Sequence record: MK562502
Reading direction: 5' to 3' (one strand)
Source: Shigella phage KPS64
Length of the DNA: 64,000 nt
Under the pieces are notes generated by a model. The model had not been told where the DNA came from. It ran no database searches and worked only from the letters and a program-made list of their open reading frames with translations. The translations under genes were made by a program, and so were the position numbers. Positions 31,761 to 51,037 of this stretch are shown here, piece after piece (within the stretch, counting starts at the first letter, position 1; each line of letters begins with the position of its first letter).

Positions 31761-33377
31761 TTAGCGTCTTAGCCCCTGATATGGATTACTCTTCATAATA
31801 TCTGTATGAGCACCCATTGAAGGTGGCTTGAATAGTTTAACTTCGTTTAGACTGTTGAAAGCATCACTGGTAGCATCCACTTGGTCATCCTTAGTACGAC
31901 CATCACCACAAAAACCTTCTAGTTCTTGGAAATATGCTTCATTCCAAGAGCCTCTAACAATTTTGACAAGTCCTGCCTCAGAAGCAGCAGAGAAACCCGC
32001 AAAACGGGTGACTTTATCTTTATTTGTTGGTTTAGCTCTTGCTCGGAAACCTTTCTCAGCAAGTTTTCTAATAAGGGAGGTTGCGTAGGATTTACCAGCA
32101 GCGCCGGGGTCTTGAGGGATAAAAATACCTGTGCGCTTACCATCACCTTCAGCAGTTTGGTTAATTTGTGTTTCAACTCCAGAAGGTCTATCTCTAAATC
32201 TTACTACGTTAATCACATAATAGCAACCATCTTTTTTAGATTTACCCATTTTAACACCTGCTGTCCAGTCAGGGTTAGGGTTAACCTCAGAAGGTAATGT
32301 TGCTGCTAAGTCCCATGCTCTTACGTCAAATACATCTGCTGGAACACTATCAACAATTTCACACCATTGTCTTTGCCAGTAGTTTGAACCTTCAGCACGA
32401 GCTTTCCAGTTACCAAAACGTAAACGTGCAACGTTAACTGGTGTGTTGTTTTCTAATTTACCACGATACTTAGGTTCAAGGAAGTCTAGAATAGGGTTGT
32501 CATCAATTGTACCGGAAATAAAAGTATATGTTTGAGGAATCTCAAGAGGGAACATTTCAAGAATTTTATCTCTATCCCAATCAGAAACCATGACACCATC
32601 ATTCATAACATACCAACGAATCCTACCGCACTTCTCTGGGTCTGGATATCCAGCATCATCTAGGAAAGGTTCTACCCAATCATAAATAAAGTGGTCTCTA
32701 TCTGGGTTCATTGAGATTTTCATATATGAGTCACCTTCAGCACCAGAACGTAAACGTGTCTGAAGATATGAAATCTGTGAAGCCGAGAAGTGTGTACCTT
32801 CGTCGAAATAAATAGCTGAGTATTCGATACCTTGGTGACCTTCTGAGTGTTTCTCAAGTTCCAAATAAGTAAACTTGATAGTTGCTCCAGAAGGGAAAGT
32901 AATAGTCATTTTCTGTTCATGTGGAACTCCACCAAACTTACCAAATAACTTCTTAGCCGCAGGCCACAGACCACCTTGTAACTGTGTTGTATTTCGACGG
33001 AAATAAACAGCGTTATAGTTTGGGTCTTCAATAAACCTTAGTGAGTCCATTAAAAGGGCAGCAGTCTTACCAGCACCAGCAGCACCACCATATAGTACCA
33101 AGTCAGCATTAGTGTTCAAGAATACCTCTTGAGAGCCAGGCTGTGGAGCTACATAGTTCTTGTCAGTCATCAATTTAAAGATGAGTCTTACTTGGTCTGG
33201 GGTGTATCTTAATAAAGTCAGAATTTGAGTTGGAAGGAATTTAGAGGGGTCTTTACCAAAGGATTTGATAATATCTTTTACTTCTTCAGAAAGCCCCAAC
33301 TCACCTGCTAGGACTTTCCTTACATCTTCCACTCGCTTCTGCTTAATAACATTTAAGTCCATTAAGCACCTCTGCAA
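31761..33377 (-). CDS. terminase large subunit (538 aa)
   Basis: Walker A LYGGAAGAGKTAAL near N-terminus; nuclease-like C-terminal half. Confidence 0.7.
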   Translation of the reverse strand: MQRCLMDLNVIKQKRVEDVRKVLAGELGLSEEVKDIIKSFGKDPSKFLPTQILTLLRYTPDQVRLIFKLMTDKNYVAPQPGSQEVFLNTNADLVLYGGAAGAGKTAALLMDSLRFIEDPNYNAVYFRRNTTQLQGGLWPAAKKLFGKFGGVPHEQKMTITFPSGATIKFTYLELEKHSEGHQGIEYSAIYFDEGTHFSASQISYLQTRLRSGAEGDSYMKISMNPDRDHFIYDWVEPFLDDAGYPDPEKCGRIRWYVMNDGVMVSDWDRDKILEMFPLEIPQTYTFISGTIDDNPILDFLEPKYRGKLENNTPVNVARLRFGNWKARAEGSNYWQRQWCEIVDSVPADVFDVRAWDLAATLPSEVNPNPDWTAGVKMGKSKKDGCYYVINVVRFRDRPSGVETQINQTAEGDGKRTGIFIPQDPGAAGKSYATSLIRKLAEKGFRARAKPTNKDKVTRFAGFSAASEAGLVKIVRGSWNEAYFQELEGFCGDGRTKDDQVDATSDAFNSLNEVKLFKPPSMGAHTDIMKSNPYQGLRR

Positions 33378-33383
33378 ATAGAA

Positions 33384-33590
33384 TTATTCAGAAACTTCTT
33401 CAGATTCCTGTTTAGGTTCTACACCAAACTTTTCATCTACTAAATTAAGAAGTTTATCCATCGTTGCTTCTTGTGGGTTAATACCAGTTGCAACAATTAA
33501 ACGTTCAGCCACAGCCATTACAGTTGCCTGAAGCATCTGAGCCTGTTTCTGAGTTTCATATAGTTCTTTGTAAACATTAGTCTCGTTCAT
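33384..33590 (-). CDS. hypothetical small protein (68 aa)
   Basis: Immediately upstream of large terminase; small terminase not excluded. Confidence 0.3.
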   Translation of the reverse strand: MNETNVYKELYETQKQAQMLQATVMAVAERLIVATGINPQEATMDKLLNLVDEKFGVEPKQESEEVSE

Positions 33591-33808: not shown

Positions 33809-33884
33809 TTGGAGTATCGGAAGGGACTCGAACCCTCATAAGCCTGTTTTGCAGACAGGAACATAACCATTTCTGACACCGACA
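33809..33884 (-). tRNA. tRNA-Cys (anticodon GCA)
   Basis: T-arm aaggg-ACTCGAA-ccctc, 7-bp acceptor, anticodon loop CTGCAAA, encoded CCA. Confidence 0.7.
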
Positions 33885-33890
33885 CATAAT

Positions 33891-33983
33891 TTGGAGGAAG
33901 ATACCAGACTTGAACTGGTACGCCGATTTCTCGGTTACTGGCAGTTTAGCAAACTGCTCCCTTACCTTTTAGGGTTAATCTTC
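33891..33983 (-). tRNA. tRNA-Ser (anticodon GCT), long variable arm
   Basis: Perfect acceptor ggaagat/atcttcc, T-arm accag/ctggt, anticodon loop TTGCTAA. Confidence 0.7.
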
Positions 33984-33985
33984 CA

Positions 33986-34783
33986 TTATTTGTTCAGAGC
34001 TTCTTTCATCTCTGGAGTTGCGATAGTATCAATCACACCAGTTTTACATGAATCATCAAACCAGCTTGGTAGAACATTCGCAAGGAAACCATTAATATTT
34101 GTTTTCAGGTATTCTGCAATCAGTGCTGCTTCATCTGCAATCATCTGAGTTACTTCATTAGCATATGCAGTAATCTTTGCAATACCATCATTAATCGCTG
34201 TAACGGCCTGTGTAGCGAGTTCAGAGATTGTATCTAGTCCTTGGTCGATTGCATCTTGCAAATCGCTTAGAACGCTATTTACAGCGTCTATGGAGGTATT
34301 AATCAAATCCATCGCTTTGTTACCGTACTCGGTAGCTACGCCCATGATACCACTAAACGGTGTACATCCAACCTGTTCACCTGCTGCTCCCATAACGTTA
34401 GAGTAACCTTTAGCTACTTGCATACGTTGTGAAAACTCATCTACAGACTTTTGTCCATACTCAGTAAGTGTACTTGTCGTTGAAGTTGTACTTCCAAGGC
34501 TTGTTGTGAAGCTTCCTAATAAGGCTGTTGTCAGTCCAGCAGCAACTAAAATCTGTTGTGTAGCTGGGTCTGTTACAGAACTAATCGAGTTAACTAATGA
34601 TTGAGAGGCAGCTACAGTACCACCAAGAACTGCTGCACCAGTAATAAGAGGGTTTGAGAAACCATTACCAGTTTTAAGGAGATTAAAAATCTCTTTACTT
34701 TGTTCTGTCATCTCTTTCATTATGCACCTATAAAGTTGGTAGCCCATCGGGATTTGAACCCTGTTCTCATGTTTTTCAGACAC
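33986..34783 (-). CDS. hypothetical A/T/S-rich protein (265 aa) embedded in the tRNA array
   Basis: ORF flanked on both sides by tRNA genes. Confidence 0.45.
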   Translation of the reverse strand: MSEKHENRVQIPMGYQLYRCIMKEMTEQSKEIFNLLKTGNGFSNPLITGAAVLGGTVAASQSLVNSISSVTDPATQQILVAAGLTTALLGSFTTSLGSTTSTTSTLTEYGQKSVDEFSQRMQVAKGYSNVMGAAGEQVGCTPFSGIMGVATEYGNKAMDLINTSIDAVNSVLSDLQDAIDQGLDTISELATQAVTAINDGIAKITAYANEVTQMIADEAALIAEYLKTNINGFLANVLPSWFDDSCKTGVIDTIATPEMKEALNK

Positions 34784-34813
34784 GCGCTTTAACCATATAA
34801 GCTAATTGAGCTA
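34737..34813 (-). tRNA. tRNA-like gene, probable tRNA-Phe (anticodon GAA), weak T-stem
   Basis: Anticodon arm cgtgt-CTGAAAA-acatg and CCA end are clean, but the T-stem has only 3 GC pairs and the D-arm is irregular. Confidence 0.4.
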
Positions 34814-34819
34814 TTAAAT

Positions 34820-34895
34820 TGGGGTGACCTACGGGAATCGAACCCGTATAGACCATGTTCACAGCATGGGTCATTATCCATTTATGATAAGGCCA
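34820..34895 (-). tRNA. tRNA-His (anticodon GTG)
   Basis: Acceptor, D-stem tcat/atga, anticodon stem ccatg/catgg, loop CTGTGAA, T-arm acggg/cccgt. Confidence 0.7.
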
Positions 34896-34927
34896 CATTT
34901 AAGGACTCTCGTAAGAACCCTTAGAAG

Positions 34928-35003
34928 TGGCAGCAGTATAAGGATTTGAACCTTAATCTTTCAGCTTCAGAGGCTGGAGCATTGCCAGTTATGCTATACT
35001 GCT
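34928..35003 (-). tRNA. tRNA-Gln (anticodon CTG)
   Basis: Perfect acceptor, D-stem gcat/atgc, loop CTCTGAA. Confidence 0.6.
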
Positions 35004-35009
35004 AATATT

Positions 35010-35088
35010 TGGTACTCCATATCGGATTCGAACCGATACATAACACAGATTTTAAATCTGGCCTCTCTGCCAATTGGAGTAATGGAGC
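35010..35088 (-). tRNA. tRNA, anticodon reads TAA (Leu?) but short variable arm
   Basis: Clean T-arm atcgg-ATTCGAA-ccgat and acceptor; anticodon register uncertain. Confidence 0.45.
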
Positions 35089-35090
35089 AT

Positions 35091-35166
35091 TGGCGGGGGA
35101 TGATGGAGTTGAACCATCTTCTTCGATTTCAAAGACCGAGGTTTTAACCGTGTAAACTAATCCCCT
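35091..35166 (-). tRNA. tRNA-Gln (anticodon TTG)
   Basis: T-arm gatgg/ccatc, D-stem gttt/aaac, loop CTTTGAA. Confidence 0.6.
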
Positions 35167-35392
35167 AACGAACTCTTGAAAGAATATATGCGTTATTACA
35201 TGTATCCTTGTTTTCTGGTAACATTGTTTCAAAGATAACTTGCTTTAGTTCTAATCCAGCAAAATTGTAGACAACTTTTCTGACTTCTAGAGGGTCAGCT
35301 TTCCAACCAACTCTGATAAAGAAAGTATCTCCAAATCTCCCTGTTTCAAGTTTGTCATCTTCTGGGTGTTTTTCAACTATAAGTCTAAACAT
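35165..35392 (-). CDS. hypothetical small protein (75 aa) within tRNA array
   Basis: ORF between tRNA genes. Confidence 0.35.
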   Translation of the reverse strand: MFRLIVEKHPEDDKLETGRFGDTFFIRVGWKADPLEVRKVVYNFAGLELKQVIFETMLPENKDTCNNAYILSRVR

Positions 35393-35410
35393 AACTCACC
35401 CCTTTAAATT

Positions 35411-35487
35411 TGGTGCAGAATAGAGGATTCGAACCCCTAACTAACAACTTCGTAGGTTGCTGCTCTGTCCATTTGAACTAATTCTGC
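35411..35487 (-). tRNA. tRNA-Arg (anticodon ACG)
   Basis: Perfect acceptor gcagaat/attctgc, loop CTACGAA. Confidence 0.65.
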
Positions 35488-35649
35488 AATATCCTTTTGA
35501 GATTCCTGTCTAGCTCTCTTCTTATCTCTTCTGAGAAAGCGTTTACGATGGTCTGTACGCCATTTGTAATAATCTTCTTCACCATCATGTGCTGCACAGC
35601 AGCCACAACTTGCAATTTCAACTTTACCATGTCTACCATAAGGCTTCAT
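35437..35649 (-). CDS. hypothetical basic Cys-rich small protein (70 aa)
   Basis: ORF whose 3' end overlaps tRNA-Arg; real start/stop uncertain. Confidence 0.25.
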   Translation of the reverse strand: MKPYGRHGKVEIASCGCCAAHDGEEDYYKWRTDHRKRFLRRDKKRARQESQKDIAELVQMDRAATYEVVS

Positions 35650-35665
35650 AGGAATCTCCTAAAAT

Positions 35666-35743
35666 TGGTGTTCCAAGACGGATTCGAACCGTCACTAATA
35701 CAAGGTTTGAGCTTGCATCCTCTGCCAATTGGGATACTGGAAC
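35666..35743 (-). tRNA. tRNA, anticodon reads CAA (Leu?) but short variable arm
   Basis: T-arm gacgg/ccgtc and acceptor clean; D-arm paralogous to the tRNA at 35010. Confidence 0.45.
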
Positions 35744-35744
35744 T

Positions 35745-35819
35745 TGGTACTCGCTGAAGGACTTGAACCTTCTTCACCAACTTGTAAGGATGGGGCTTTA
35801 CCATATAAACTAAGCGAGC
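35745..35819 (-). tRNA. tRNA-Val (anticodon TAC)
   Basis: T-arm gaagg/ccttc, loop CTTACAA. Confidence 0.6.
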
Positions 35820-35914
35820 TTTGAAGAGGTCTGAAGCTGTGCCGCTAACTCAACTCCGTGGAATTTGTTACGGTCTTCAGTTGACTCAAGCGGTCTTTCA
35901 CTTGACCTCAAAAT

Positions 35915-35991
35915 TGGTGCTGCTCACAGGACTCGAACCTGCATCTCCATCCTTACAAGGGATGTGCAATAGCCAATTATACGAAAGCAGC
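35915..35991 (-). tRNA. tRNA-Thr (anticodon TGT)
   Basis: Anticodon stem catcc/ggatg, loop CTTGTAA. Confidence 0.6.
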
Positions 35992-35997
35992 ATTATT

Positions 35998-36072
35998 TGG
36001 AGCATCCAGAGGGAATCGAACCCTCAACCTCAGTTTGGAAGACTGTAATTTTCCCATTTAAACTATGGATGC
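35998..36072 (-). tRNA. tRNA-Gly (anticodon TCC)
   Basis: Perfect acceptor gcatcca/tggatgc, loop CTTCCAA. Confidence 0.65.
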
Positions 36073-36078
36073 ACTAAT

Positions 36079-36154
36079 TGGTGGAGAAGCAGGGAATTGA
36101 ACCCTGTACTTAAGTTTGCAAAACTTACGTTTTAACCATGTAAACTACATCCCC
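36079..36154 (-). tRNA. tRNA-Ala (anticodon TGC)
   Basis: D-stem gttt/aaac, anticodon stem taagt/actta, loop TTTGCAA. Confidence 0.65.
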
Positions 36155-36160
36155 ATTGTT

Positions 36161-36236
36161 TGGTACAGGTGGAGGGAATTGAACCCATCGTCTTACTGAT
36201 TAAGAGTCAGCCGCATAACCATTTTGCTACACCTGC
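36161..36236 (-). tRNA. tRNA-Lys (anticodon CTT), weak T-stem
   Basis: Loop CTCTTAA; T-arm gggTTCAATTccc with 3 GC pairs, paralogous to the tRNA at 37640. Confidence 0.5.
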
Positions 36237-36243
36237 ATTAATT

Positions 36244-36321
36244 TGGTAGGAGACAAGGGATTCGAACCCTCAAACACCAACTTCTAAGGATGGTAGGTTT
36301 ACCAATTACCGTCAATCTCCC
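36244..36321 (-). tRNA. tRNA, anticodon reads TAG (Leu?) but short variable arm
   Basis: T-arm and CCA end clear; anticodon register uncertain. Confidence 0.4.
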
Positions 36322-36576
36322 ATTAAATCTTTGTAGAGAACTGCTAAGACGCCAAAGCAACAATGGTATCAAATGCCTTAACAATTCTCTAAAAAGACCT
36401 ATTGGCCTCTGCATAGTCTTGCTTAATCCGGTGACTAGAACCTTTGGAGAGCTTGATACTATCTCTTCTCCGTGACACCTACTAGGTGCTTTACCAGTGC
36501 CGTGTACGCCAATACACGAAGAGGAAACCTGAAACACTTGCTCGAACAAATAGTCTCAGCTTTAAATCTTATTAGG

Positions 36577-36664
36577 CGGTAGATAAAGGAGTCGAACCCT
36601 CACCGTATCTCTACAATGGCAATAGTTTTCAAGACTATTTGGCTTCCATTAGCCGCTACCTACC
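36577..36664 (-). tRNA. tRNA-Ser (anticodon TGA), long variable arm
   Basis: Acceptor ggtaggt/atctacc, anticodon stem atagt/actat, loop CTTGAAA, about 20-nt variable arm. Confidence 0.6.
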
Positions 36665-36677
36665 CCTAATAAGACTT

Positions 36678-36760
36678 TGGCATGGGACGGAGGATTCGAA
36701 CCCCTTTGAGTAAGTTTTGGAGGCTTACGCACATGCCTTAGTGTCTTAACATCGTCCCAT
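36678..36760 (-). tRNA. tRNA, possibly Trp (anticodon CCA); about 4 nt longer than standard
   Basis: Perfect acceptor atgggac/gtcccat; loop CTCCAAA candidate; extra length unexplained. Confidence 0.45.
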
Positions 36761-36925
36761 ACTATATTTCGAAGCTTACCCTGTTATCTCAACACTGTCA
36801 AGCTTCTTCTCAGATTATTTACATGTTCTGGAAAACATGAGATACAGACCACCTCCTTATGAGATTGACTCTTTCAAGTCAATGCGGAGACCCATAAAGG
36901 TCGTCATAGTAATCTGCTAACTAAT

Positions 36926-37045
36926 TGGCAGTCAAGGTAGGAGTCGAACCTACTTACTCTTGAGGGAGCTACCCTCGGCAACTTTCCGACTTTCGTTTAT
37001 CTCTTAACGCGTATCTAAGATAACTTACTCGTGTTGTCTTGACCA
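36926..37045 (-). ncRNA. 120-nt tRNA-like RNA (117 nt without CCA): terminal stem plus canonical T-arm, extra internal hairpins
   Basis: CCA end, T-arm gtagg-AGTCGAA-cctac and 7-bp terminal stem agtcaag/cttgacc are present, but about 40 nt too long for a tRNA. Confidence 0.4.
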
Positions 37046-37052
37046 TTAAAAT

Positions 37053-37128
37053 TGGCACTCCGTATAGGACTCGAACCTATATATGAACTGTTTAGAAGAC
37101 AGTTGCCTATCCTTTAGACTAACGGAGC
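37053..37128 (-). tRNA. tRNA-Arg (anticodon TCT)
   Basis: Anticodon stem actgt/acagt, loop CTTCTAA. Confidence 0.65.
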
Positions 37129-37404
37129 ATTAATATTTTAAAGAGCACTCATTGCATTTAAGCCAAGCCCCTTAAGGGATGCTCTTTAGAATATTGCCCA
37201 CTTTATTAATCATACCGTGGGCTAGTACGCCAAATTCTTTAACAGGGGGTTGGAAGACCCTGCTGGTGTTTAGCCTATTAAGCTACTGCCAGAAAAACAT
37301 TATCGTTTGCATTTATTTTTAAGTTTTTAAAATAGACGCTACGCTAACGAAAACTAAGGTTATCTTAAAGTGGTCACATCTGAATGTCAACAACTTTATG
37401 AAAT

Positions 37405-37479
37405 TGGTTGTAGGTGAGGGTATCGAACCCTCTTCTAACGGTTATCAGCCGTTTGCATTACCATTTATGCTAACCCACA
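37405..37479 (-). tRNA. tRNA-Ile (anticodon GAT)
   Basis: D-stem gcat/atgc, anticodon stem aacgg/ccgtt, loop CTGATAA. Confidence 0.7.
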
Positions 37480-37481
37480 AT

Positions 37482-37558
37482 TGGAGGTTCAGATGGGAAT
37501 CGAACCCACATTCATAGGGCTTATGAAACCCTTGCATTACCTTATCTGCGACTGAACC
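37482..37558 (-). tRNA. tRNA-Met (anticodon CAT)
   Basis: Perfect acceptor ggttcag/ctgaacc, loop TTCATAA. Confidence 0.6.
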
Positions 37559-37639
37559 ATTATAAGTTGCCCCTTTGTAGAGAACTGATTGAGTGGGTGT
37601 TTCCAGCCGCGCATGTGTTCTTCAGTTAAGGGGCGAATT

Positions 37640-37715
37640 TGGTAGAAGTGGAGGGATTCGAACCCGTCGCCTGTCAGATTAAAAGTCTGCCGCATCACCA
37701 TTCTGCTACACTTCC
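37640..37715 (-). tRNA. tRNA-Lys (anticodon TTT), weak T-stem
   Basis: Loop CTTTTAA; T-arm gggTTCGAATccc. Confidence 0.5.
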
Positions 37716-37909
37716 ATTAAATCATCTTTGCAGTAACCTACGCAAACCTTGCTAAAGGGTTTGTAGAGTCATCTCTTATAAGCTAATCTAGAATCATGCT
37801 CAAGAGACTCTTCGGCACTCATGGGACGACTGGTTAGCTCCATAAGTCACTGCAAAGAGGATTACCAGACCGTATTTATCTTAAGTGCTCCCATTACACC
37901 AACACGCCG

Positions 37910-37990
37910 TAACGTGTGAAGGAATCGAACCTTCGCCTTTTCTTTACCAGAGAAATAGATTGTTTATTGTTTGCTGTAAACGGTCTTCTG
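37910..37990 (-). pseudogene. tRNA-like remnant: T-arm and anticodon-arm (loop CTGGTAA, anticodon GGT) without a pairing acceptor stem
   Basis: T-arm gaagg-AATCGAA-ccttc and stem tttct/agaaa found; no 5' acceptor partner. Confidence 0.3.
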
Positions 37991-38139
37991 TAAAATTGTT
38001 GGAACCAGACCAAGTTTTAAATTTTTCAAATTAAATTGGCTTGAAATATTAAAATTGCTTGCTGTATTTGGTCTTCTGCTCCTTTAAAGAATACTCGTAA
38101 GAACTCTTTAAGGGAGGGGCTAAAAAGCCCTCTCAAATT

Positions 38140-38216
38140 TGGCGGTTACGAAGGGATTCGAACCCTCATCATCCTCCGTGACAGGGAGGTATTTTGACCA
38201 GTTAAACTACATAACC
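38140..38216 (-). tRNA. tRNA-Asp (anticodon GTC)
   Basis: Anticodon stem cctcc/ggagg, loop CTGTCAC. Confidence 0.65.
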
Positions 38217-38222
38217 TTTATT

Positions 38223-38307
38223 TGGTGCGCCCATCTGGACTCGAACCAGAAACCTCGAAAGGGACAGTTTTACAGACTGCTGCATTGACCATCTCTGCCA
38301 TGAACGC
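38223..38307 (-). tRNA. tRNA-Tyr (anticodon GTA), long variable arm
   Basis: 85 nt; loop CTGTAAA; variable hairpin. Confidence 0.6.
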
Positions 38308-38316
38308 ATTTAAAAT

Positions 38317-38393
38317 TGGCGGTTAGTCAGGGATTCGAACCCTGTACCATTCGGTTAACAGCCGACCGCACATGCCTTATGTGCTTCCTAACC
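38317..38393 (-). tRNA. tRNA-Asn (anticodon GTT)
   Basis: T-arm caggg/ccctg, loop CTGTTAA. Confidence 0.6.
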
Positions 38394-38476
38394 ATATTAG
38401 TATTACCAGACCGTATCTTTTCATTTTTTCCTATAAAAAATTTTAAGTGTTTGCTGTAAACGGTCTTCTGTAAATT

Positions 38477-38553
38477 TGGAGGCGGGTGTAGGAGTCGAAC
38501 CTACCGATAACATGCTAATGAGACATGTGAGACACCCTTTCTCTATACCCGCA
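38477..38553 (-). tRNA. tRNA with anticodon CAT (Met, fMet or lysidine-Ile)
   Basis: D-stem gaga/tctc, anticodon stem catgt/gcatg, loop CTCATTA. Confidence 0.55.
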
Positions 38554-38640
38554 ATTCTTAATGACCAGACCAAATCTTTTTTGGATTTCTATGCGCGAAA
38601 TTGAAAAGTTTGTTTGCTGTAATTGGTCTTCTGTCAAAAC

Positions 38641-38718
38641 TGGCATTCCCGAAGGGACTTGAACCCTCAAACCACACCTTGAAAGGGTGTTGACTTTACC
38701 TAATTTGTCTACGGGAAT
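38641..38718 (-). tRNA. tRNA-Glu (anticodon TTC)
   Basis: Perfect acceptor attcccg/cgggaat, anticodon stem acacc/ggtgt, loop CTTTCAA. Confidence 0.65.
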
Positions 38719-38724
38719 ATAATT

Positions 38725-38801
38725 TGGTCTCCATTGAAGGACTTGAACCTTCGGCCTTACCGCCCCAAACGGAACGCTCTACCAAGCTGAGCTAAATGGA
38801 G
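38725..38801 (-). tRNA. tRNA-Pro (anticodon TGG)
   Basis: Perfect acceptor, D-stem gctc/gagc, loop TTTGGGG. Confidence 0.65.
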
Positions 38802-47994: not shown

Positions 47995-48415
47995 AGATAT
48001 AGTGCGTAAAGCTTTGCTTAACAACGGAACTAAAGATGATATGTACAAAGATATCGTTGCAGAATTTGGTTGTTCAAGACATGCTGCAAAGGTTCTTCTT
48101 CATAGCTTTATCTGGGAGTGTTCAGAAGCTTACATGCAATCTGTAATAACTGAAGGGCTTGATATGTCTCTACCTGAACGCTTCAAAGAAGAGACTAAGG
48201 CTAGTTCCATAAAGCTAAACACACTCTATATTGTAGAAACCGTTGATACAGGTGAACCAGTAGGCACAATACATATTGAAAGTATGTGTGATGGTAAGTT
48301 CCTTGGTTATGGTGAAGCAAACGCATATAGTGCATTCTCAACCGCACACTGGATAGTTGAAAATGATGGGTATATTCAGGTCAATGGTAAAAACACTTTC
48401 AAACTTAAGATGTGA
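47981..48415 (+). CDS. hypothetical protein (144 aa)
   Basis: ATG at 47981 overlapping upstream stop. Confidence 0.35.
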   Translation: MKNVKDIVRKALLNNGTKDDMYKDIVAEFGCSRHAAKVLLHSFIWECSEAYMQSVITEGLDMSLPERFKEETKASSIKLNTLYIVETVDTGEPVGTIHIESMCDGKFLGYGEANAYSAFSTAHWIVENDGYIQVNGKNTFKLKM

Positions 48416-49083
48416 TTATGGGACACCTTCTGAAGAAGAGTTGGAAGAACTTAATAGATATGGTTCCCCATCTGAAGAGGAAGAGAAAGAACTCCGAGGA
48501 ATGGGAAGCAATTACTAAGAAATGTTTTAAGGATTTGATAGAGATGAAAAAGTTTGAACTTGAAAGAAAGTATCTGGTACTTAGCCTAGATGATATCAAC
48601 ACACATCTTGACGAAAGTGAGAAGTGGTCTTTAGACTTACTTGTTAATCGACTTAAGATGGAACGAGAAGATTCAGGTAAAGAGCCACTTGAAGGTGTCT
48701 TTGTCAAGAAGTCTTATCCGTTCTTTGAAGATACTTTGAAGAAACTTGAGATGTATGTTAAGCAGCAGAACCGTAAAGAGTTCTCTATGATTTCTCTTGG
48801 TGGACAACAAATGCTGGTTATGGAAGATATAAACCCTAAGAGAACCAACAAAGGTGTTTGTATCAAGGTCACAGGTAAAGAAGAATTTATTGATATTGGA
48901 CATTTTAAACATGTCAGTGAAGGTGGCTCCATTTCACTCAATGGCAACCATTATTACATACGAACATACCCGATTAAGGGTTCACAGATTATGATTACAG
49001 TCATGGATGATAGTACTGGATTCACACACTTCTTCCAAACTACAAAGCAAGCTATACAAGCAATCATTGAAGAATTGTGTTGA
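48412..49083 (+). CDS. hypothetical protein (223 aa; start may be the ATG at 48544)
   Basis: Last plus-strand ORF before terminator. Confidence 0.35.
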   Translation: MIMGHLLKKSWKNLIDMVPHLKRKRKNSEEWEAITKKCFKDLIEMKKFELERKYLVLSLDDINTHLDESEKWSLDLLVNRLKMEREDSGKEPLEGVFVKKSYPFFEDTLKKLEMYVKQQNRKEFSMISLGGQQMLVMEDINPKRTNKGVCIKVTGKEEFIDIGHFKHVSEGGSISLNGNHYYIRTYPIKGSQIMITVMDDSTGFTHFFQTTKQAIQAIIEELC

Positions 49084-49090
49084 TTAATAT

Positions 49091-49142
49091 TTAGCCCCTT
49101 AAAATGGATTCGATAGAATCTATCTCATAGGGGCTTTTTATT
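49091..49142 (+). terminator. rho-independent terminator with palindromic element in its loop
   Basis: agcccct ... aggggct stem enclosing GATAGAATCTATC, followed by TTTTTATT. Confidence 0.5.
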
Positions 49143-50719
49143 GAGTAAAATTTACGAAATTTATAATTTTTATAAAATTTGGGACTCACTCCGTTCATCT
49201 TGGGTCACCATGATATGTGATAAAATATCTATACCCTTCTAAACACCCTCTCTAAGCATCATCTCTATATAGTATTATATAGTATCTATATAGCCTCTTA
49301 GTCCCTAAATAGTGCTCTCTATATAGCCCTCTATAAAGCCTTCTAAGCCTACCATTAATCAACCCTATACAATCACCTTCCTAACCTCTTCCTAGCCCCT
49401 TAGAAGCCCCTATACTCATCTTAATCTCTAGGTTATCTGTGTTACTTAACAGTAACCCATTAGGTAAACGATAGTACCCTATATAGCAGAATCACTAGGT
49501 ATTACTAAGCCTCTATATAGACTGTTATATAACACTAAACAGGTATTCCCTGTAAAGGCTTATCCTACAAGGTCTAACACGGTACTAACAAGGTATCTTA
49601 TAAGCCTGTTAATTCCTGTTTTATATAAGATAGTGTATAGATAGTTATTCAGTTCTATAAAATTTTTATAAAATAGACTAGGTAGTGTTTGTTTAGGAGT
49701 CTTTGGAGAATCTGAAAAATATCTACAGAGGGTGTATATCTGCTTGGTAGCCCTTAACAGCCCTGTAACATCCCCTTTGCAAAATCTTAAAATATCATTA
49801 ACAATCTCTTAACAACTCTATCAAGCTCTTAACATCTCTTCAAAGTTCTTAACAGTCTCTTAACAGAACTAACAAGAGCTTAACAAGTCTGTAACATTAC
49901 TAACAAGAGTCTAACAAGTTGCTTATAAGTTGCTAAATAGTTAAATCTTAAGAGTTATTTTGTTAAGATAATTAACAAGGTGCTAACAAGTTCTAAACCT
50001 TTTTAACAAGCTATTAACATGGTCACTATCTCTTGGTCTATAGTTCCCTTCCCTTCTTAGTGATTCTCTTAAAAGCCCTCTTAAAAGCTCTCTATAGCTC
50101 TGTATAGCCTCTTCTAAGCTTCTCCCTAGTAACTACACCCCAACTACCTGTATAGCTCTTTGTAGGGCTTTCTAGGGGCTTATACAGGGACTTCAAAGTG
50201 TCTAACAAGCTCTTAACATACATCTAACAAGGATTTAACAAGGGGCTAACAAGTCTCTAATAAGCATAACTATGTTGCATTTGTTAAGATTTTGTTAAGA
50301 GAATGTAAAGGGGGCTAACTTTTACGTTACTTTTAAGCATCTTTTACGTTACTTTGAAGACTCCATAGCATACTTTAAAGTAACTAACAAGCCCCTGTTT
50401 AACTATTCACAAGATTCTATCCAGCTTATAAGCTTATACCCTTATAAGATTCTTTTAAGGCTCTAGAAAGCTCTATAAAGGGCTTTTAAGAAGTGGTTAA
50501 TATGATTGCTTAAGATGAGATGATAAGCCCGTATAGAGCGTTATAGAGCGTTTTAGGGATTGCCCTTCCCTTTCGGGTTATGGGCTTATATTTAAGTTGA
50601 TTTGATAAGAGGATATAGAGTAAGCTATAGAGTTATTGCTCTGAAGGTATGAGATAGATTCTATTGAATCAATGATATGAATCTTTATATAGGATTCGAT
50701 AGAGGACTATCTCATAGAC
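49143..50719. other. 1.6-kb gene-free, pyrimidine-skewed, repeat-dense region
   Basis: No ORF of 60 aa or more in any frame; clusters of CTATATAG palindromes, CT(T)AACA(A/G) heptamers and CTCTTAAAAG repeats. Confidence 0.6.
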
Positions 50720-50745
50720 GTAAAAAAGCCCCATCTAAGGGGCTG
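50720..50745 (-). terminator. rho-independent terminator ending the minus-strand small-gene array
   Basis: On minus strand agcccc-ttagat-ggggct hairpin followed by TTTTTT. Confidence 0.55.
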
Positions 50746-50785
50746 TAAAGGTGTCTGGGGCTATTTGCCCCGTTGCGGCGACTTG

Positions 50786-51037
50786 TTAGTTAATCACACC
50801 GAATTTTTGGTAGTAAAGCGTGATAAGAGAATCACCCCAATAGTAATAAGATACACCATCCTTTAAGACTTCCTGTTTAGTTTCTTTCCAGAATGTTTCC
50901 GATGGGTTATAGTCCTGAATAGTTGCTTTCAGACACATTTCAACCATACCGAAAGCATCACCAGTTCCAACCATATCAAATTTAACATCTAATACGTGGA
51001 AGCCAAAATTGTTAACAGTTGCGCGGATAGTAGCCAT
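50786..51037 (-). CDS. small protein (83 aa) of cassette-punctuated array
   Basis: ORF preceded by conserved hairpin plus CCTAAACTGGAGAATCT cassette. Confidence 0.45.
   Translation of the reverse strand: MATIRATVNNFGFHVLDVKFDMVGTGDAFGMVEMCLKATIQDYNPSETFWKETKQEVLKDGVSYYYWGDSLITLYYQKFGVIN

What the first reader, a model, noticed from the sequence alone, without database searches (positions are those of the whole stretch)
49084..50785. 1.7-kb gene-free, strand-skewed, repeat-dense region between convergent terminators
No ORF of 60 aa or more exists in any frame across 1.7 kb of an otherwise tightly packed genome. The plus strand is pyrimidine-rich and carries successive arrays of short motifs: six CTATATAG palindromes (49270-49530), about 15 CT(T)AACA(A/G) heptamers spaced about 10-11 bp apart (49790-49990 and 50190-50260), and CTCTTAAAAG/CTCTATAG repeats (50040-50130). 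Helical-phase spacing suggests cooperative protein binding or bent DNA. Candidates are a replication origin, a packaging site or terminal-repeat junction, or a cluster of noncoding RNAs.
Basis: seen in the sequence. Interest (0 to 1): 0.8.

Follow-up and report, generated by a model that had tools for sequence, protein, structure and literature searches.

The report
Terminal-repeat junction of Felix-O1-like phage
This gene-free, repeat-packed stretch is where the two ends of a Felix O1-like phage chromosome meet: a 570-bp direct terminal repeat with conserved flanks, which has already been mapped experimentally in close relatives, so it is real and functional but not new.

Summary
No ORF longer than 43 aa lies between two convergent terminators. 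There are 21 TAACA motifs against 1.2 expected, mostly exactly 11 bp apart, and 5 CTATATAG against 0.02 expected.

The window is a Felix O1-like myovirus (Ounavirinae, nearest Mooglevirus). The 608-bp direct terminal repeat (DTR) of relative UAB_Phi87, determined by Bal31 digestion and run-off sequencing, aligns end to end with window 49744-50306. Exact end-duplications in GenBank records of HP1 (570 bp) and CRP22 (579 bp) both map to 49746-50315. An Erwinia phage from another genus has a 438-bp DTR with homologous boundaries.

So the finding is the concatemer junction: right-end flank, one DTR copy, left-end flank, insulated by terminators. The junction is more conserved than the neighbouring genes, and conservation peaks at the left cut site.

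By inference, terminase nicks opposite strands at the two invariant boundaries, and the repeat is duplicated by strand-displacement synthesis, as in T7. The phased iterons are probably protein-binding arrays for packaging; the protein is unknown.

I found no support for a DnaA-type origin, ncRNAs or small genes. The DTR is already known for this family; only its internal iteron architecture appears undescribed.

The parts
49093..49140 (+). Rho-independent terminator ending the + strand gene block (stop codon at 49081-49083). Its loop carries a ~24-nt hairpin mini-insertion (49104-49128).
   Evidence: Fold -21.4 kcal/mol, z -3.95. Annotated as a terminator in Moogle and Michonne. The loop insertion is present or absent among relatives.
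49141..49745 (.). Unique non-coding flank next to the left DTR boundary. In the packaged DNA it lies immediately before the second (right-end) DTR copy, reading the window + strand.
   Evidence: No conserved ORF. 67-92% nucleotide identity to 11 relatives, equal to or above the neighbouring gene in each of them.
49263..49522 (.). Cluster of palindromic CTATATAG motifs and their variants (CTCTATATAGCC, CTCTATAAAGCC).
   Evidence: 5 exact copies against 0.02 expected. The core copies are invariant in the 12-genome alignment.
49167..49178 (.). Invariant palindromic box TTTTTATAAAAT, copy 1.
   Evidence: Only two copies in the window at <=1 mismatch. Invariant in 12 genomes even where the upstream -35-like sequence is deleted.
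49663..49674 (.). Invariant palindromic box TTTTTATAAAAT, copy 2, about 70 bp outside the left DTR boundary.
49733..49759 (+). Left DTR boundary / inferred terminase cut site: TGTATATCTGCTT^GGTAGCCCTTAACA, with the cut between 49745 and 49746.
   Evidence: Invariant apart from one substitution (SUSP1) in 12 genomes. It sits in the most conserved 50-nt block of the region (0.95). It is the only part detectably conserved with Erwinia phages by blastn. The motif is single-copy in each of 30 IMG/VR genomes and in the window.
49746..50315 (.). Direct terminal repeat (DTR), 570 bp. One copy is present here, as expected for a collapsed or concatemer-form assembly.
   Evidence: The published UAB_Phi87 DTR aligns to 49744-50306. 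Exact end-duplications of HP1 (570 bp, annotated repeat_region) and CRP22 (579 bp) both map to 49746-50315. The Erwinia phage PM_21 438-bp DTR has homologous boundaries.
49755..50019 (+). Left iteron array: 16 forward YTAACA(A/G) units on an 11-bp lattice, plus one inverted copy at 49961.
   Evidence: 18-23 forward copies are kept in 25 enterobacterial genomes, and 14 in the Erwinia-type genome.
50020..50200 (+). Iteron-free, pyrimidine-rich DTR core with CTCTTAAAAGCC / CTCTATAGC / CTGTATAGC units. Segment 50067-50098 is an inverted copy of the right-flank block 50460-50491.
   Evidence: TRF. Inverted repeat I2, 32 nt, 81% complementary. 35-41% purine.
50203..50254 (+). Right iteron array: 5 forward YTAACAAG units spaced exactly 11 bp apart.
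50279..50319 (-). Right DTR boundary / inferred cut site: two inverted iterons (50282, 50293), a degenerate third, then ...GAATGTAAAGGGGGC^TAAC, with the cut between 50315 and 50316. Read inward on the - strand the end is GCCCCCTTTACA-N5-TTAACA-N5-TTAACA, mirroring the left end.
   Evidence: Conserved in 12 genomes and in 26 IMG/VR genomes. The HP1, CRP22 and SPJ41 records end exactly here.
50319..50359 (+). Tandem 22-nt unit CTTTTACGTTACTTT(T/G)AAG, two copies, immediately outside the right boundary. Copy number varies among relatives.
   Evidence: Direct repeat D12, 95% identity. Alignment.
50434..50637 (.). Highly conserved right-flank blocks. Motifs here are in reverse-complement orientation (TATAGAG, TTAAGA). 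Includes the small hairpin 50562-50585.
   Evidence: Conservation 0.90-0.93 at 50434-50483 and 50534-50633. k-mer polarity flips here. One compensatory stem change in REP12 and CRP22. The hairpin's energy is not better than shuffles.
50648..50716 (.). Long imperfect hairpin built from an inverted pair of the GAGATAGATTCTATYGAATC mini-element. It is variable among relatives.
   Evidence: Fold -29.7 kcal/mol, z -5.5. Presence and absence in the alignment. Copies occur only inside the junction.
50721..50744 (-). Rho-independent terminator ending the - strand gene block (gene 50786-51037).
   Evidence: Annotated as a terminator in Moogle and Michonne.

Best explanation
The region is the concatemer junction, that is, the physical genome ends, of a Felix O1-like (Ounavirinae) myovirus that packages a non-permuted genome with short exact direct terminal repeats.

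Layout:
- Window 49746-50315 is the 570-bp DTR.
- 49141-49745 and 50316-50720 are the unique non-coding DNA that adjoins it at the two genome ends.
- Convergent terminators (49093-49140 on +, 50744-50721 on -) keep transcription out of the junction.

Shown:
- Homology to mapped DTRs of relatives.
- Identical boundaries across genera.
- Strong purifying selection on the junction.
- Significant, phased iteron arrays.

Inferred mechanism:
1. Replication and recombination give concatemers with one DTR per junction.
2. Terminase (TerL at 31761-33377) recognises the junction.
3. It nicks the + strand at 49745/49746 and the - strand at 50316/50315. Each nick lies 5' of the same GCC(N)C-TTWACA-N5/6-(T)TAACA element, which is present in inverted orientation at the two boundaries.
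4. Strand-displacement synthesis from the two 3'-OH ends duplicates the 570 bp, so each packaged genome carries a copy at both ends (Watson/T7-type model).
5. The 21 forward and 3 inverted YTAACA(A/G) iterons on an 11-bp lattice, and the CTCTATA-type motifs whose polarity flips near the right boundary, are arrays of binding sites. The binding protein is unidentified. It could be a small terminase subunit or an accessory or end-binding protein that marks and shapes the DNA for cleavage and packaging.

The confidence of 0.8 applies to the identification as the DTR-containing genome-end junction. The nicking model and the packaging role of the iterons are each about 0.4-0.5.
For: - Taxon: 254 Ounavirinae records carry the region; the nearest are Shigella Sf13-19 and Citrobacter Mooglevirus at 90-97% identity.
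- Experimental anchor: the UAB_Phi87 DTR, determined by Bal31 digestion plus run-off sequencing (PMC4837284) and printed in Fig S1, aligns end to end to window 49744-50306.
- Independent records: exact end-duplications in HP1 (570 bp, annotated repeat_region; its paper states direct repeats at both termini) and CRP22 (579 bp) both map to 49746-50315. Other records begin or end at the same point.
- Another genus: the Erwinia phage PM_21 438-bp DTR has homologous boundaries and the same iterons.
- Length agreement: boundary-to-boundary distance in the UAB_Phi87 genome is 614 bp against the published 608 bp. Lengths of 567-658 bp in 25 other genomes fit the PhageTerm value of 613 bp for Ro111lw.
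- Conservation: the junction is more conserved than the flanking genes, with peaks at the boundaries.
- Iterons: statistics and lattice spacing; retained copy number.
- Terminase: TerL is 95% identical to that of E9, a phage with a PhageTerm-assigned DTR. TerLs of this group cluster as a DTR-type clade.
- General model: one DTR per concatemer junction with the second copy synthesised (PMC10438801).
Against: - No read-end or coverage data exist for this particular phage, so its termini are inferred by homology.
- The two published or deposited boundary sets differ by 2 nt on the left and about 9 nt on the right.
- The nick positions relative to the shared end motif differ by 2-4 nt between the two ends, so the single-specificity nicking model is only suggestive.
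- No small terminase subunit or other iteron-binding protein is recognisable. The 68-aa ORF upstream of TerL has no known family.
- The T7 DTR, the paradigm, does not to my knowledge contain such a dense iteron array, so the arrays may serve another purpose, such as an origin, end protection or recombination.
Confidence: 0.8

Rival explanations
1. Iteron-type replication origin. The phased TAACA repeats bind a phage initiator, adjacent AT-rich DNA melts, and replication starts inside or next to the terminal repeat. This could be instead of, or in addition to, a packaging role.
For: Many short direct repeats in helical phase. AT-rich segments of 25-28% GC at 49100-49199, 49600-49699 and 49900-49999. 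Strong conservation. Insulation from transcription by terminators.
Against: The repeats lie precisely inside a mapped DTR whose boundaries they mirror. There are no DnaA boxes in the junction. The flanking genes are unknown-function PHROGs rather than an initiator, helicase or primase. GC skew tracks gene orientation only. The cores are 5-8 bp, far shorter than the classical 17-22-bp iterons (established knowledge). No literature support was found.
Confidence: 0.15
2. A cluster of non-coding RNAs, or one long structured transcript, encoded between the terminators.
For: Several stable hairpins: 50648-50716 at z -5.5, and 50562-50585 with one compensatory change. Conserved TTTTTATAAAAT boxes resemble extended -10 elements.
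Against: No Rfam match even at E<=1. Sigma-70-like sites are no more frequent than in shuffles, 10 against 10.0. The -35-like part upstream of the first box is deleted in several relatives. The most stable hairpin is the least conserved segment. Short phased repeats point to a DNA-level rather than an RNA-level function.
Confidence: 0.05
3. The region is filled with small protein-coding genes under 60 aa that were missed by the ORF cut-off.
For: Several GenBank records annotate 30-66-aa 'hypothetical proteins' here. One 26-codon frame (49732-49812) stays open in 10 of 11 relatives and in an Erwinia phage.
Against: The annotated ORFs differ in position and strand between records. Only that one frame is conserved. 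It straddles the DTR cut site, ends at an iteron-supplied TAA, and shows no third-position bias in the Erwinia comparison. An 11-bp TAACA lattice puts TAA in every frame within three repeats.
Confidence: 0.03
4. Chance low-complexity DNA or decaying remnants with no function.
For: None beyond the absence of genes.
Against: Motif enrichments at P 1e-11 to 1e-19 and an exact 11-bp lattice. Conservation is higher than in the flanking genes across three or more genera.
Confidence: 0.01

Closest known systems
Direct terminal repeat of Salmonella phage UAB_Phi87 (Felixounavirus), Bardina et al. 2016, PMC4837284. Also the annotated DTRs of Citrobacter phage vB_CbrM_HP1 (OK539913) and Escherichia phage CRP22 (OQ708377).
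   Same: Orthologous sequence. The same two boundary sequences, the same iteron arrays, the same position between the same convergent gene blocks, and TerL of the same clade.
   Different: Length: 570 bp here against 579-614 bp in Felixounavirus, owing to small indels. 80-95% identity. Termini have not been measured for this phage. The published work reports the repeat sequence but does not analyse its iterons, its end symmetry or its flanks.
T7/T3 concatemer junction (short exact DTR, pac sites, duplication of the repeat during packaging).
   Same: A non-permuted genome with a short exact DTR. One repeat per concatemer junction, so the second copy must be synthesised (PMC10438801). Non-coding DNA with repeated short motifs adjoins the repeat (T7 part from my own knowledge of Dunn & Studier 1983).
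   Different: The T7 DTR is 160 bp and is not an iteron array. T7 uses its own RNA polymerase pausing at the junction, plus gp18/gp19 (described in PMC3276506). No phage RNA-polymerase involvement and no small terminase subunit is recognisable in this myovirus. There is no sequence similarity.
P1 pac site and SPP1 pacL/pacR (terminase recognition sites built from several short repeated boxes flanking the cut).
   Same: Clusters of 6-7-bp repeats about one helical turn apart on both sides of a terminase cleavage site (my own knowledge, not tested here).
   Different: Those phages package by headful and have permuted genomes. They have far fewer repeats (about 7 in P1), different motifs, and no DTR duplication.
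Long terminal repeats of Twort-like / SPO1-like myoviruses, bracketed by short inverted repeats.
   Same: Repeat boundaries are marked by the same short sequence in inverted orientation, suggesting one nuclease specificity acting at both borders (recalled from Lobocka et al. 2012; a lead, not tested).
   Different: Those repeats are kilobases long and contain genes. They are unrelated in sequence.
Iteron-type replication origins (lambda ori, plasmid oriV).
   Same: Multiple direct repeats in helical phase next to AT-rich DNA.
   Different: The cores here are 5-8 bp rather than 17-22 bp. There are 24 copies rather than 3-7. There is no adjacent initiator gene and no DnaA boxes. The array coincides exactly with a terminal repeat.

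Membership tests
Ounavirinae short exact DTR / concatemer junction (UAB_Phi87 type) | Sequence homologous over its full length to an experimentally determined DTR of the family | tested here: met
   The printed UAB_Phi87 DTR aligns end to end to 49744-50306.
Ounavirinae short exact DTR / concatemer junction (UAB_Phi87 type) | Both conserved boundary sequences present, single-copy, at DTR-length distance | tested here: met
   TGTATATCTGCTT^GGTAGCCC at 49733 and ATGTAAAGGGGGC^TAAC at 50303-50319, 570 bp apart. The left motif is single-copy in the window. Exact end-duplications in HP1 and CRP22 have the same boundaries.
Ounavirinae short exact DTR / concatemer junction (UAB_Phi87 type) | Large terminase of the Felix O1-like DTR clade | tested here: met
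   TerL at 31761-33377 matches PF03237 and PF17289 and phrog_979. It is 95% identical to TerL of E9, which has a PhageTerm-assigned DTR. Clade assignment follows PMC4837284.
Ounavirinae short exact DTR / concatemer junction (UAB_Phi87 type) | Physical termini of this phage's virion DNA at these positions, with the repeat present at both ends | not testable with these tools
   This needs sequencing reads or virion DNA. The window holds one collapsed copy.
T7-type DTR packaging system (Autographiviridae) | Short exact non-permuted DTR regenerated at a concatemer junction | tested here: inconclusive
   The DTR is inferred by homology. The duplication mechanism itself has not been tested in any Ounavirinae that I could find.
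T7-type DTR packaging system (Autographiviridae) | Small plus large terminase pair (gp18/gp19) and phage RNA-polymerase promoter or pause site at the junction | tested here: not met
   No small subunit is recognisable. The ORF upstream of TerL is phrog_4397 of unknown function with no Pfam match. None is annotated in the portion examined (1-45,000, which includes TerL and its neighbours) of the Pharokka-annotated relative E9. There is no sequence similarity. It works like T7 but is not a member of that family.
Iteron-type replication origin | DnaA boxes and/or an adjacent initiator gene | tested here: not met
   None of the 5 TTWTNCACA matches in the window lies in the junction. The neighbouring genes are unknown-function PHROGs.
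Iteron-type replication origin | Direct repeats plus an AT-rich unwinding element that supports autonomous replication | tested here: inconclusive
   Repeats and segments of 25-28% GC exist, but origin activity is not testable here.
Described non-coding RNA families (Rfam 15) | Covariance-model match | tested here: not met
   No match at gathering score or at E<=1 in 49000-50850.

The most novel reading that the evidence does not exclude
The terminal repeat is more than a passive redundancy. It would be a telomere-like nucleoprotein platform, with about 24 phased YTAACA sites that read identically inward from both DNA ends. An as-yet unidentified phage protein would coat it. That protein could be an unconventional small terminase or an end-protection or initiator protein, coupling end recognition, DTR duplication and possibly replication initiation or RecBCD protection. 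It would be conserved from Escherichia to Erwinia phages. This would be a new recognition logic for DTR packaging in myoviruses that lack a recognisable TerS.
Probability: 0.2. Interest if true: 0.55.

Novelty: already known. Interest (0 to 1): 0.25.

Why it matters
The practical consequences come first. Records of this phage group, including this window, are deposited in arbitrary permutations with the repeat collapsed. The DTR is often unannotated or peppered with spurious 'hypothetical proteins'. The two invariant boundary sequences allow the true ends to be placed in any Ounavirinae genome without read data. That matters for Felix O1-type phages used in Salmonella and E. coli biocontrol, typing and engineering.

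There is also a biological question. Nobody has shown how a myovirus with a T4-type large terminase and no recognisable small subunit finds and duplicates a short DTR. The conserved cut-site contexts and the iteron lattice give defined DNA substrates for testing this.

Tried and rejected
- **UAB_Phi87 GenBank record as a guide to the ends.** The version held (87,603 bp) starts in the tRNA cluster, not at the termini. I used the sequence printed in the paper's supplement instead.
- **KMM2 end overlap.** Its 64 bp falls inside the DTR with different boundaries, so it is probably an assembly overlap rather than a true DTR.
- **Rfam.** No match at gathering score or at permissive thresholds.
- **Sigma-70 promoter scan.** 10 sites found against 10.0 expected, so not informative.
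- **DnaA boxes.** None in the junction.
- **Small-ORF hypothesis.** Only one 26-codon frame is conserved. It is explained by nucleotide conservation and iteron-supplied stop codons.
- **Small terminase candidate.** The 68-aa ORF upstream of TerL has no informative family.
- **Hairpin 50562-50585.** Its energy is no better than shuffles.
- **Literature.** Searches for a T7 pacB description (one search was swamped by 'PacBio') and for any description of iterons or an origin in Felix O1-like phages found nothing relevant.
- **GC-skew origin inference.** Skew follows transcription direction.
Full report

Yes. Between the stop codon of the + strand gene 48412-49083 and the - strand gene 50786-51037, the longest ORFs are 43, 36, 35 and 33 aa.

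Both flanking terminators exist:
- On the + strand, a stem-loop at 49093-49135 is followed by a U-run (-21.4 kcal/mol, z -3.95). The simple scan missed it because its loop carries a 24-nt insertion.
- On the - strand, a stem at 50744-50727 is followed by a T-run.
- Both are annotated as terminators at the equivalent places in phages Moogle and Michonne.

The motif claims are statistically solid:
- TAACA occurs 21 times between 49755 and 50247. The rest of the window predicts 1.16 (P 1.5e-19), and dinucleotide shuffles of the segment give 1.4 +/- 1.2.
- 12 of the 20 successive spacings are exactly 11 bp, which never occurred in 200,000 random placements.
- CTATATAG occurs 5 times in 49265-49513 against 2 in the other 62 kb (P 2e-11).
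- TRF confirms the CTCTTAAAAGCC and CTCTATAG units at 50066-50112.
- No other TAACA cluster exists in the 64 kb.
- The pyrimidine skew is patchy: 35-41% purine at 49200-49400 and 50000-50200, and G-rich at 50500-50700.

**2. What genome is this?**

The region matches 254 phage records, all Ounavirinae (Felix O1-like myoviruses). The best matches are Shigella phages Sf13-Sf19 and Citrobacter Mooglevirus at 90-97% identity. In most records nothing is annotated under the match.

The window also carries a block of 24 tRNAs, plus TerL (31761-33377), portal and the other genes typical of this group.

**3. What is the region?**

Bardina et al. 2016 (PMC4837284) determined the ends of the Felix O1-like phage UAB_Phi87. 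They used Bal31 digestion and run-off sequencing, and reported a 608-bp direct terminal repeat. Its sequence is printed in their Fig S1. The reverse complement of that sequence aligns end to end with window 49744-50306.

Three independent GenBank records carry exact duplications at their two ends:
- Citrobacter phage vB_CbrM_HP1 (Mooglevirus): 570 bp, annotated as repeat_region. Its paper states direct repeats at both termini.
- Escherichia phage CRP22 (Felixounavirus): 579 bp.
- Erwinia phage vEam_PM_21 (Kolesnikvirus): 438 bp.

The HP1 and CRP22 repeats both map to exactly 49746-50315. The Erwinia repeat has recognisably homologous boundaries. Several further records begin or end at the same point. 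A counter-example is KMM2, whose 64-bp overlap has unrelated boundaries and is probably an assembly artefact.

I used the two boundary sequences as anchors in 26 IMG/VR Ounavirinae genomes:
- The boundary-to-boundary distance is 438 bp in the Erwinia type and 567-658 bp elsewhere.
- It is 614 bp in the UAB_Phi87 genome, against the published 608 bp. This fits their ends lying 2 nt further out on one side and about 9 nt further in on the other.
- The range is compatible with the PhageTerm value of 613 bp for Ro111lw.

The finding is therefore the concatemer junction. It contains one collapsed copy of the DTR (49746-50315) with the non-coding DNA that adjoins it at each genome end. Read on the window's + strand, the packaged molecule would start at 49746, run once around the genome, and end at 50315.

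**4. Is it functional?**

In a 12-genome alignment the junction is more conserved at nucleotide level than the protein-coding genes on either side:
- DTR: 0.76-0.94 identity.
- Flanks: 0.67-0.92.
- Left gene: 0.54-0.80.

Conservation peaks at 0.95 at the left boundary, with 0.89-0.93 at the right boundary and in two right-flank blocks. The left boundary and the first ~110 bp of the repeat are the only part of the 1.7 kb still detectable by blastn in Erwinia phages.

The boundary contexts are TGTATATCTGCTT^GGTAGCCCTTAACA and ATGT(A/T)AAGG(G/T)GGC^TA(A/G)C. They are near-invariant in the enterobacterial phages (one or two substitutions at scattered positions) and recognisable in the Erwinia phages.

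**5. Anatomy.**

The DTR holds 16 forward YTAACA(A/G) units (49755-50019). Next comes a 180-bp iteron-free, pyrimidine-rich core (50020-50200) with CTCTTAAAAGCC and CTCTATAGC units. Five more forward units follow at exactly 11 bp (50203-50254). Two to three inverted units sit at the right edge (50282, 50293, and a degenerate one at 50304).

Across 26 genomes, 52% of successive spacings are exactly 11 bp. Copy number stays at 18-23 forward and 2-7 inverted, despite length changes.

Because of the inverted units, both virion ends read alike when read 5' to 3' inward:
- GGTA-GCCC-TTAACA-N6-TAACA at one end.
- GCCCCC-TT(T/A)ACA-N5-TTAACA at the other.

In the Erwinia repeat the inverted units occupy the whole right part.

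Outside the repeat:
- The left flank carries the CTATATAG cluster and two invariant palindromic TTTTTATAAAAT boxes.
- The right flank carries a variable 22-nt tandem unit and conserved blocks whose motifs (TATAGAG, TTAAGA) are the reverse complements of those to the left.
- Motif polarity therefore flips near the right boundary.
- The DTR core 50067-50098 is an 81% inverted copy of the invariant block 50460-50491.

**6. Most likely mechanism.**

The identity of the region as the DTR junction is shown. Its conservation and the non-random phased arrays are also shown.

The rest is inferred from the general model for short-DTR phages, in which there is one repeat per concatemer junction and the second copy is synthesised (PMC10438801; classical Watson/T7 model, my own knowledge).
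1. Terminase nicks the + strand at 49745/49746 and the - strand at 50316/50315.
2. The 3'-OH ends are extended with strand displacement, so both daughter genomes receive a full repeat.
3. The shared GCC..TTWACA..TAACA element, just 3' of each nick on the nicked strand, would let one specificity serve both cuts.
4. The iteron lattice probably binds an oligomeric or filament-forming protein. No small terminase is recognisable: the 68-aa ORF upstream of TerL is of unknown family, and none is annotated in the portion examined (1-45,000, which includes TerL and its neighbours) of a Pharokka-annotated relative.
5. The convergent terminators plausibly shield this nucleoprotein site from read-through.

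The weak points are the 2-4-nt difference in nick offset between the two ends, the 2-9-nt disagreement between boundary determinations, and the complete lack of data on the binding protein.

**7. Rivals.**

- A replication origin is not excluded as an additional role, but has no positive evidence. There are no DnaA boxes and no initiator next door. Skew is explained by gene orientation. The cores are much shorter than classical iterons.
- An ncRNA cluster is unsupported. There are no Rfam hits, promoter-like sites are at chance level, and the most stable hairpin is the least conserved part.
- Small genes are unsupported. Annotated mini-ORFs in GenBank records are inconsistent between records. 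The single conserved 26-codon frame (49732-49812) straddles the cut site and ends at an iteron TAA.

**8. Comparison and novelty.**

This is the orthologue of a published, experimentally mapped DTR (UAB_Phi87) and of annotated DTRs (HP1).

It works like the T7 junction but is not a member of that system. It has a different terminase organisation, no sign of phage RNA polymerase involvement, and no sequence similarity.

I could not find several things described in the searchable literature:
- the internal architecture: the 11-bp iteron lattice and the inward-reading symmetry of the two ends;
- the polarity flip near the right boundary;
- conservation of the cut-site contexts into the Erwinia phages.

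These are modest additions that make the packaging signal experimentally tractable.

**9. Verdict.**

The feature is real, functional and well explained, and it is not new. Interest is 0.25. The most novel reading still open is a telomere-like protein-coated repeat with combined packaging, replication or protection roles, bound by an unconventional factor. I put its probability at about 0.2, and it would merit about 0.55 if true.

Noticed in passing
window 49104-49128, 50648-50670, 50692-50716; also L016 (Moogle) 907, L006 (CRP22) 1453/1529, L025, L026, L034, L039: A ~20-24-nt hairpin mini-element, GAGATAGATTCTATCGAATC, occurs only inside the junction. Its variant GAGGTAGATTCTACCGAATC carries a compensatory stem change. 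It sits at different places in different relatives: inside either terminator loop, or a few nt outside the left DTR boundary. It is absent from the remaining 62 kb of the window and from 45 kb of phage E9. It may be a tiny mobile or recombinogenic hairpin, or a packaging accessory site.
   Followed up: partly
window 49732-49812 (+): A 26-codon frame (GTG/ATG start, peptide xYICLVALNSPVTSPLQNLKISLTIS) straddles the left DTR cut site. It stays open with the same length in 10 of 11 relatives and in an Erwinia phage. It is probably a by-product of nucleotide conservation, but this was not formally tested for coding signal.
   Followed up: partly
window 49167-49178 and 49663-49674: Two invariant copies of the palindromic box TTTTTATAAAAT lie in the left flank, and they are the only two in 64 kb at <=1 mismatch. 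The -35-like sequence upstream of the first copy is deleted in several relatives, so they are unlikely to be plain sigma-70 promoters. Their function is unknown.
   Followed up: partly
window 49430-49461; L018 (phiSUSP1) insertion near window-equivalent 49659: Other short (29-32 nt) hairpin-forming insertions are present in only some relatives. An example is TAGGTTATCTGTGTTACTTAACAGTAACCCAT, found in the window, L27 and CRP22 only.
   Followed up: no
window 33384-33590 (-): A 68-aa acidic ORF lies immediately upstream of the large terminase gene (phrog_4397, unknown function, no Pfam match). It is the positional candidate for a missing small terminase or packaging accessory protein.
   Followed up: partly
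L018 (phiSUSP1, Suspvirus) against the window: Mosaicism: the phiSUSP1 DTR and right-hand gene are 93-94% identical to the window, but the left flank is 78% and the left gene 63%. This suggests recombinational exchange of the DTR module between genera.
   Followed up: no
GenBank records P219, L27, ESh19-22, Michonne, E9: Automated annotation places mutually inconsistent 30-66-aa 'hypothetical proteins' inside the DTR and its flanks. Most records deposit the genome in arbitrary permutation with the DTR collapsed and unannotated.
   Followed up: partly
window 33813-38801 (-): A cluster of 24 tRNA genes lies between the terminase gene and the upstream gene block, which is typical of Felix O1-like phages.
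   Followed up: no
phage collection: One record whose organism name begins 'Staphylococcus' carries this Ounavirinae junction. This is probably a naming or host-assignment oddity and was not inspected.
   Followed up: no
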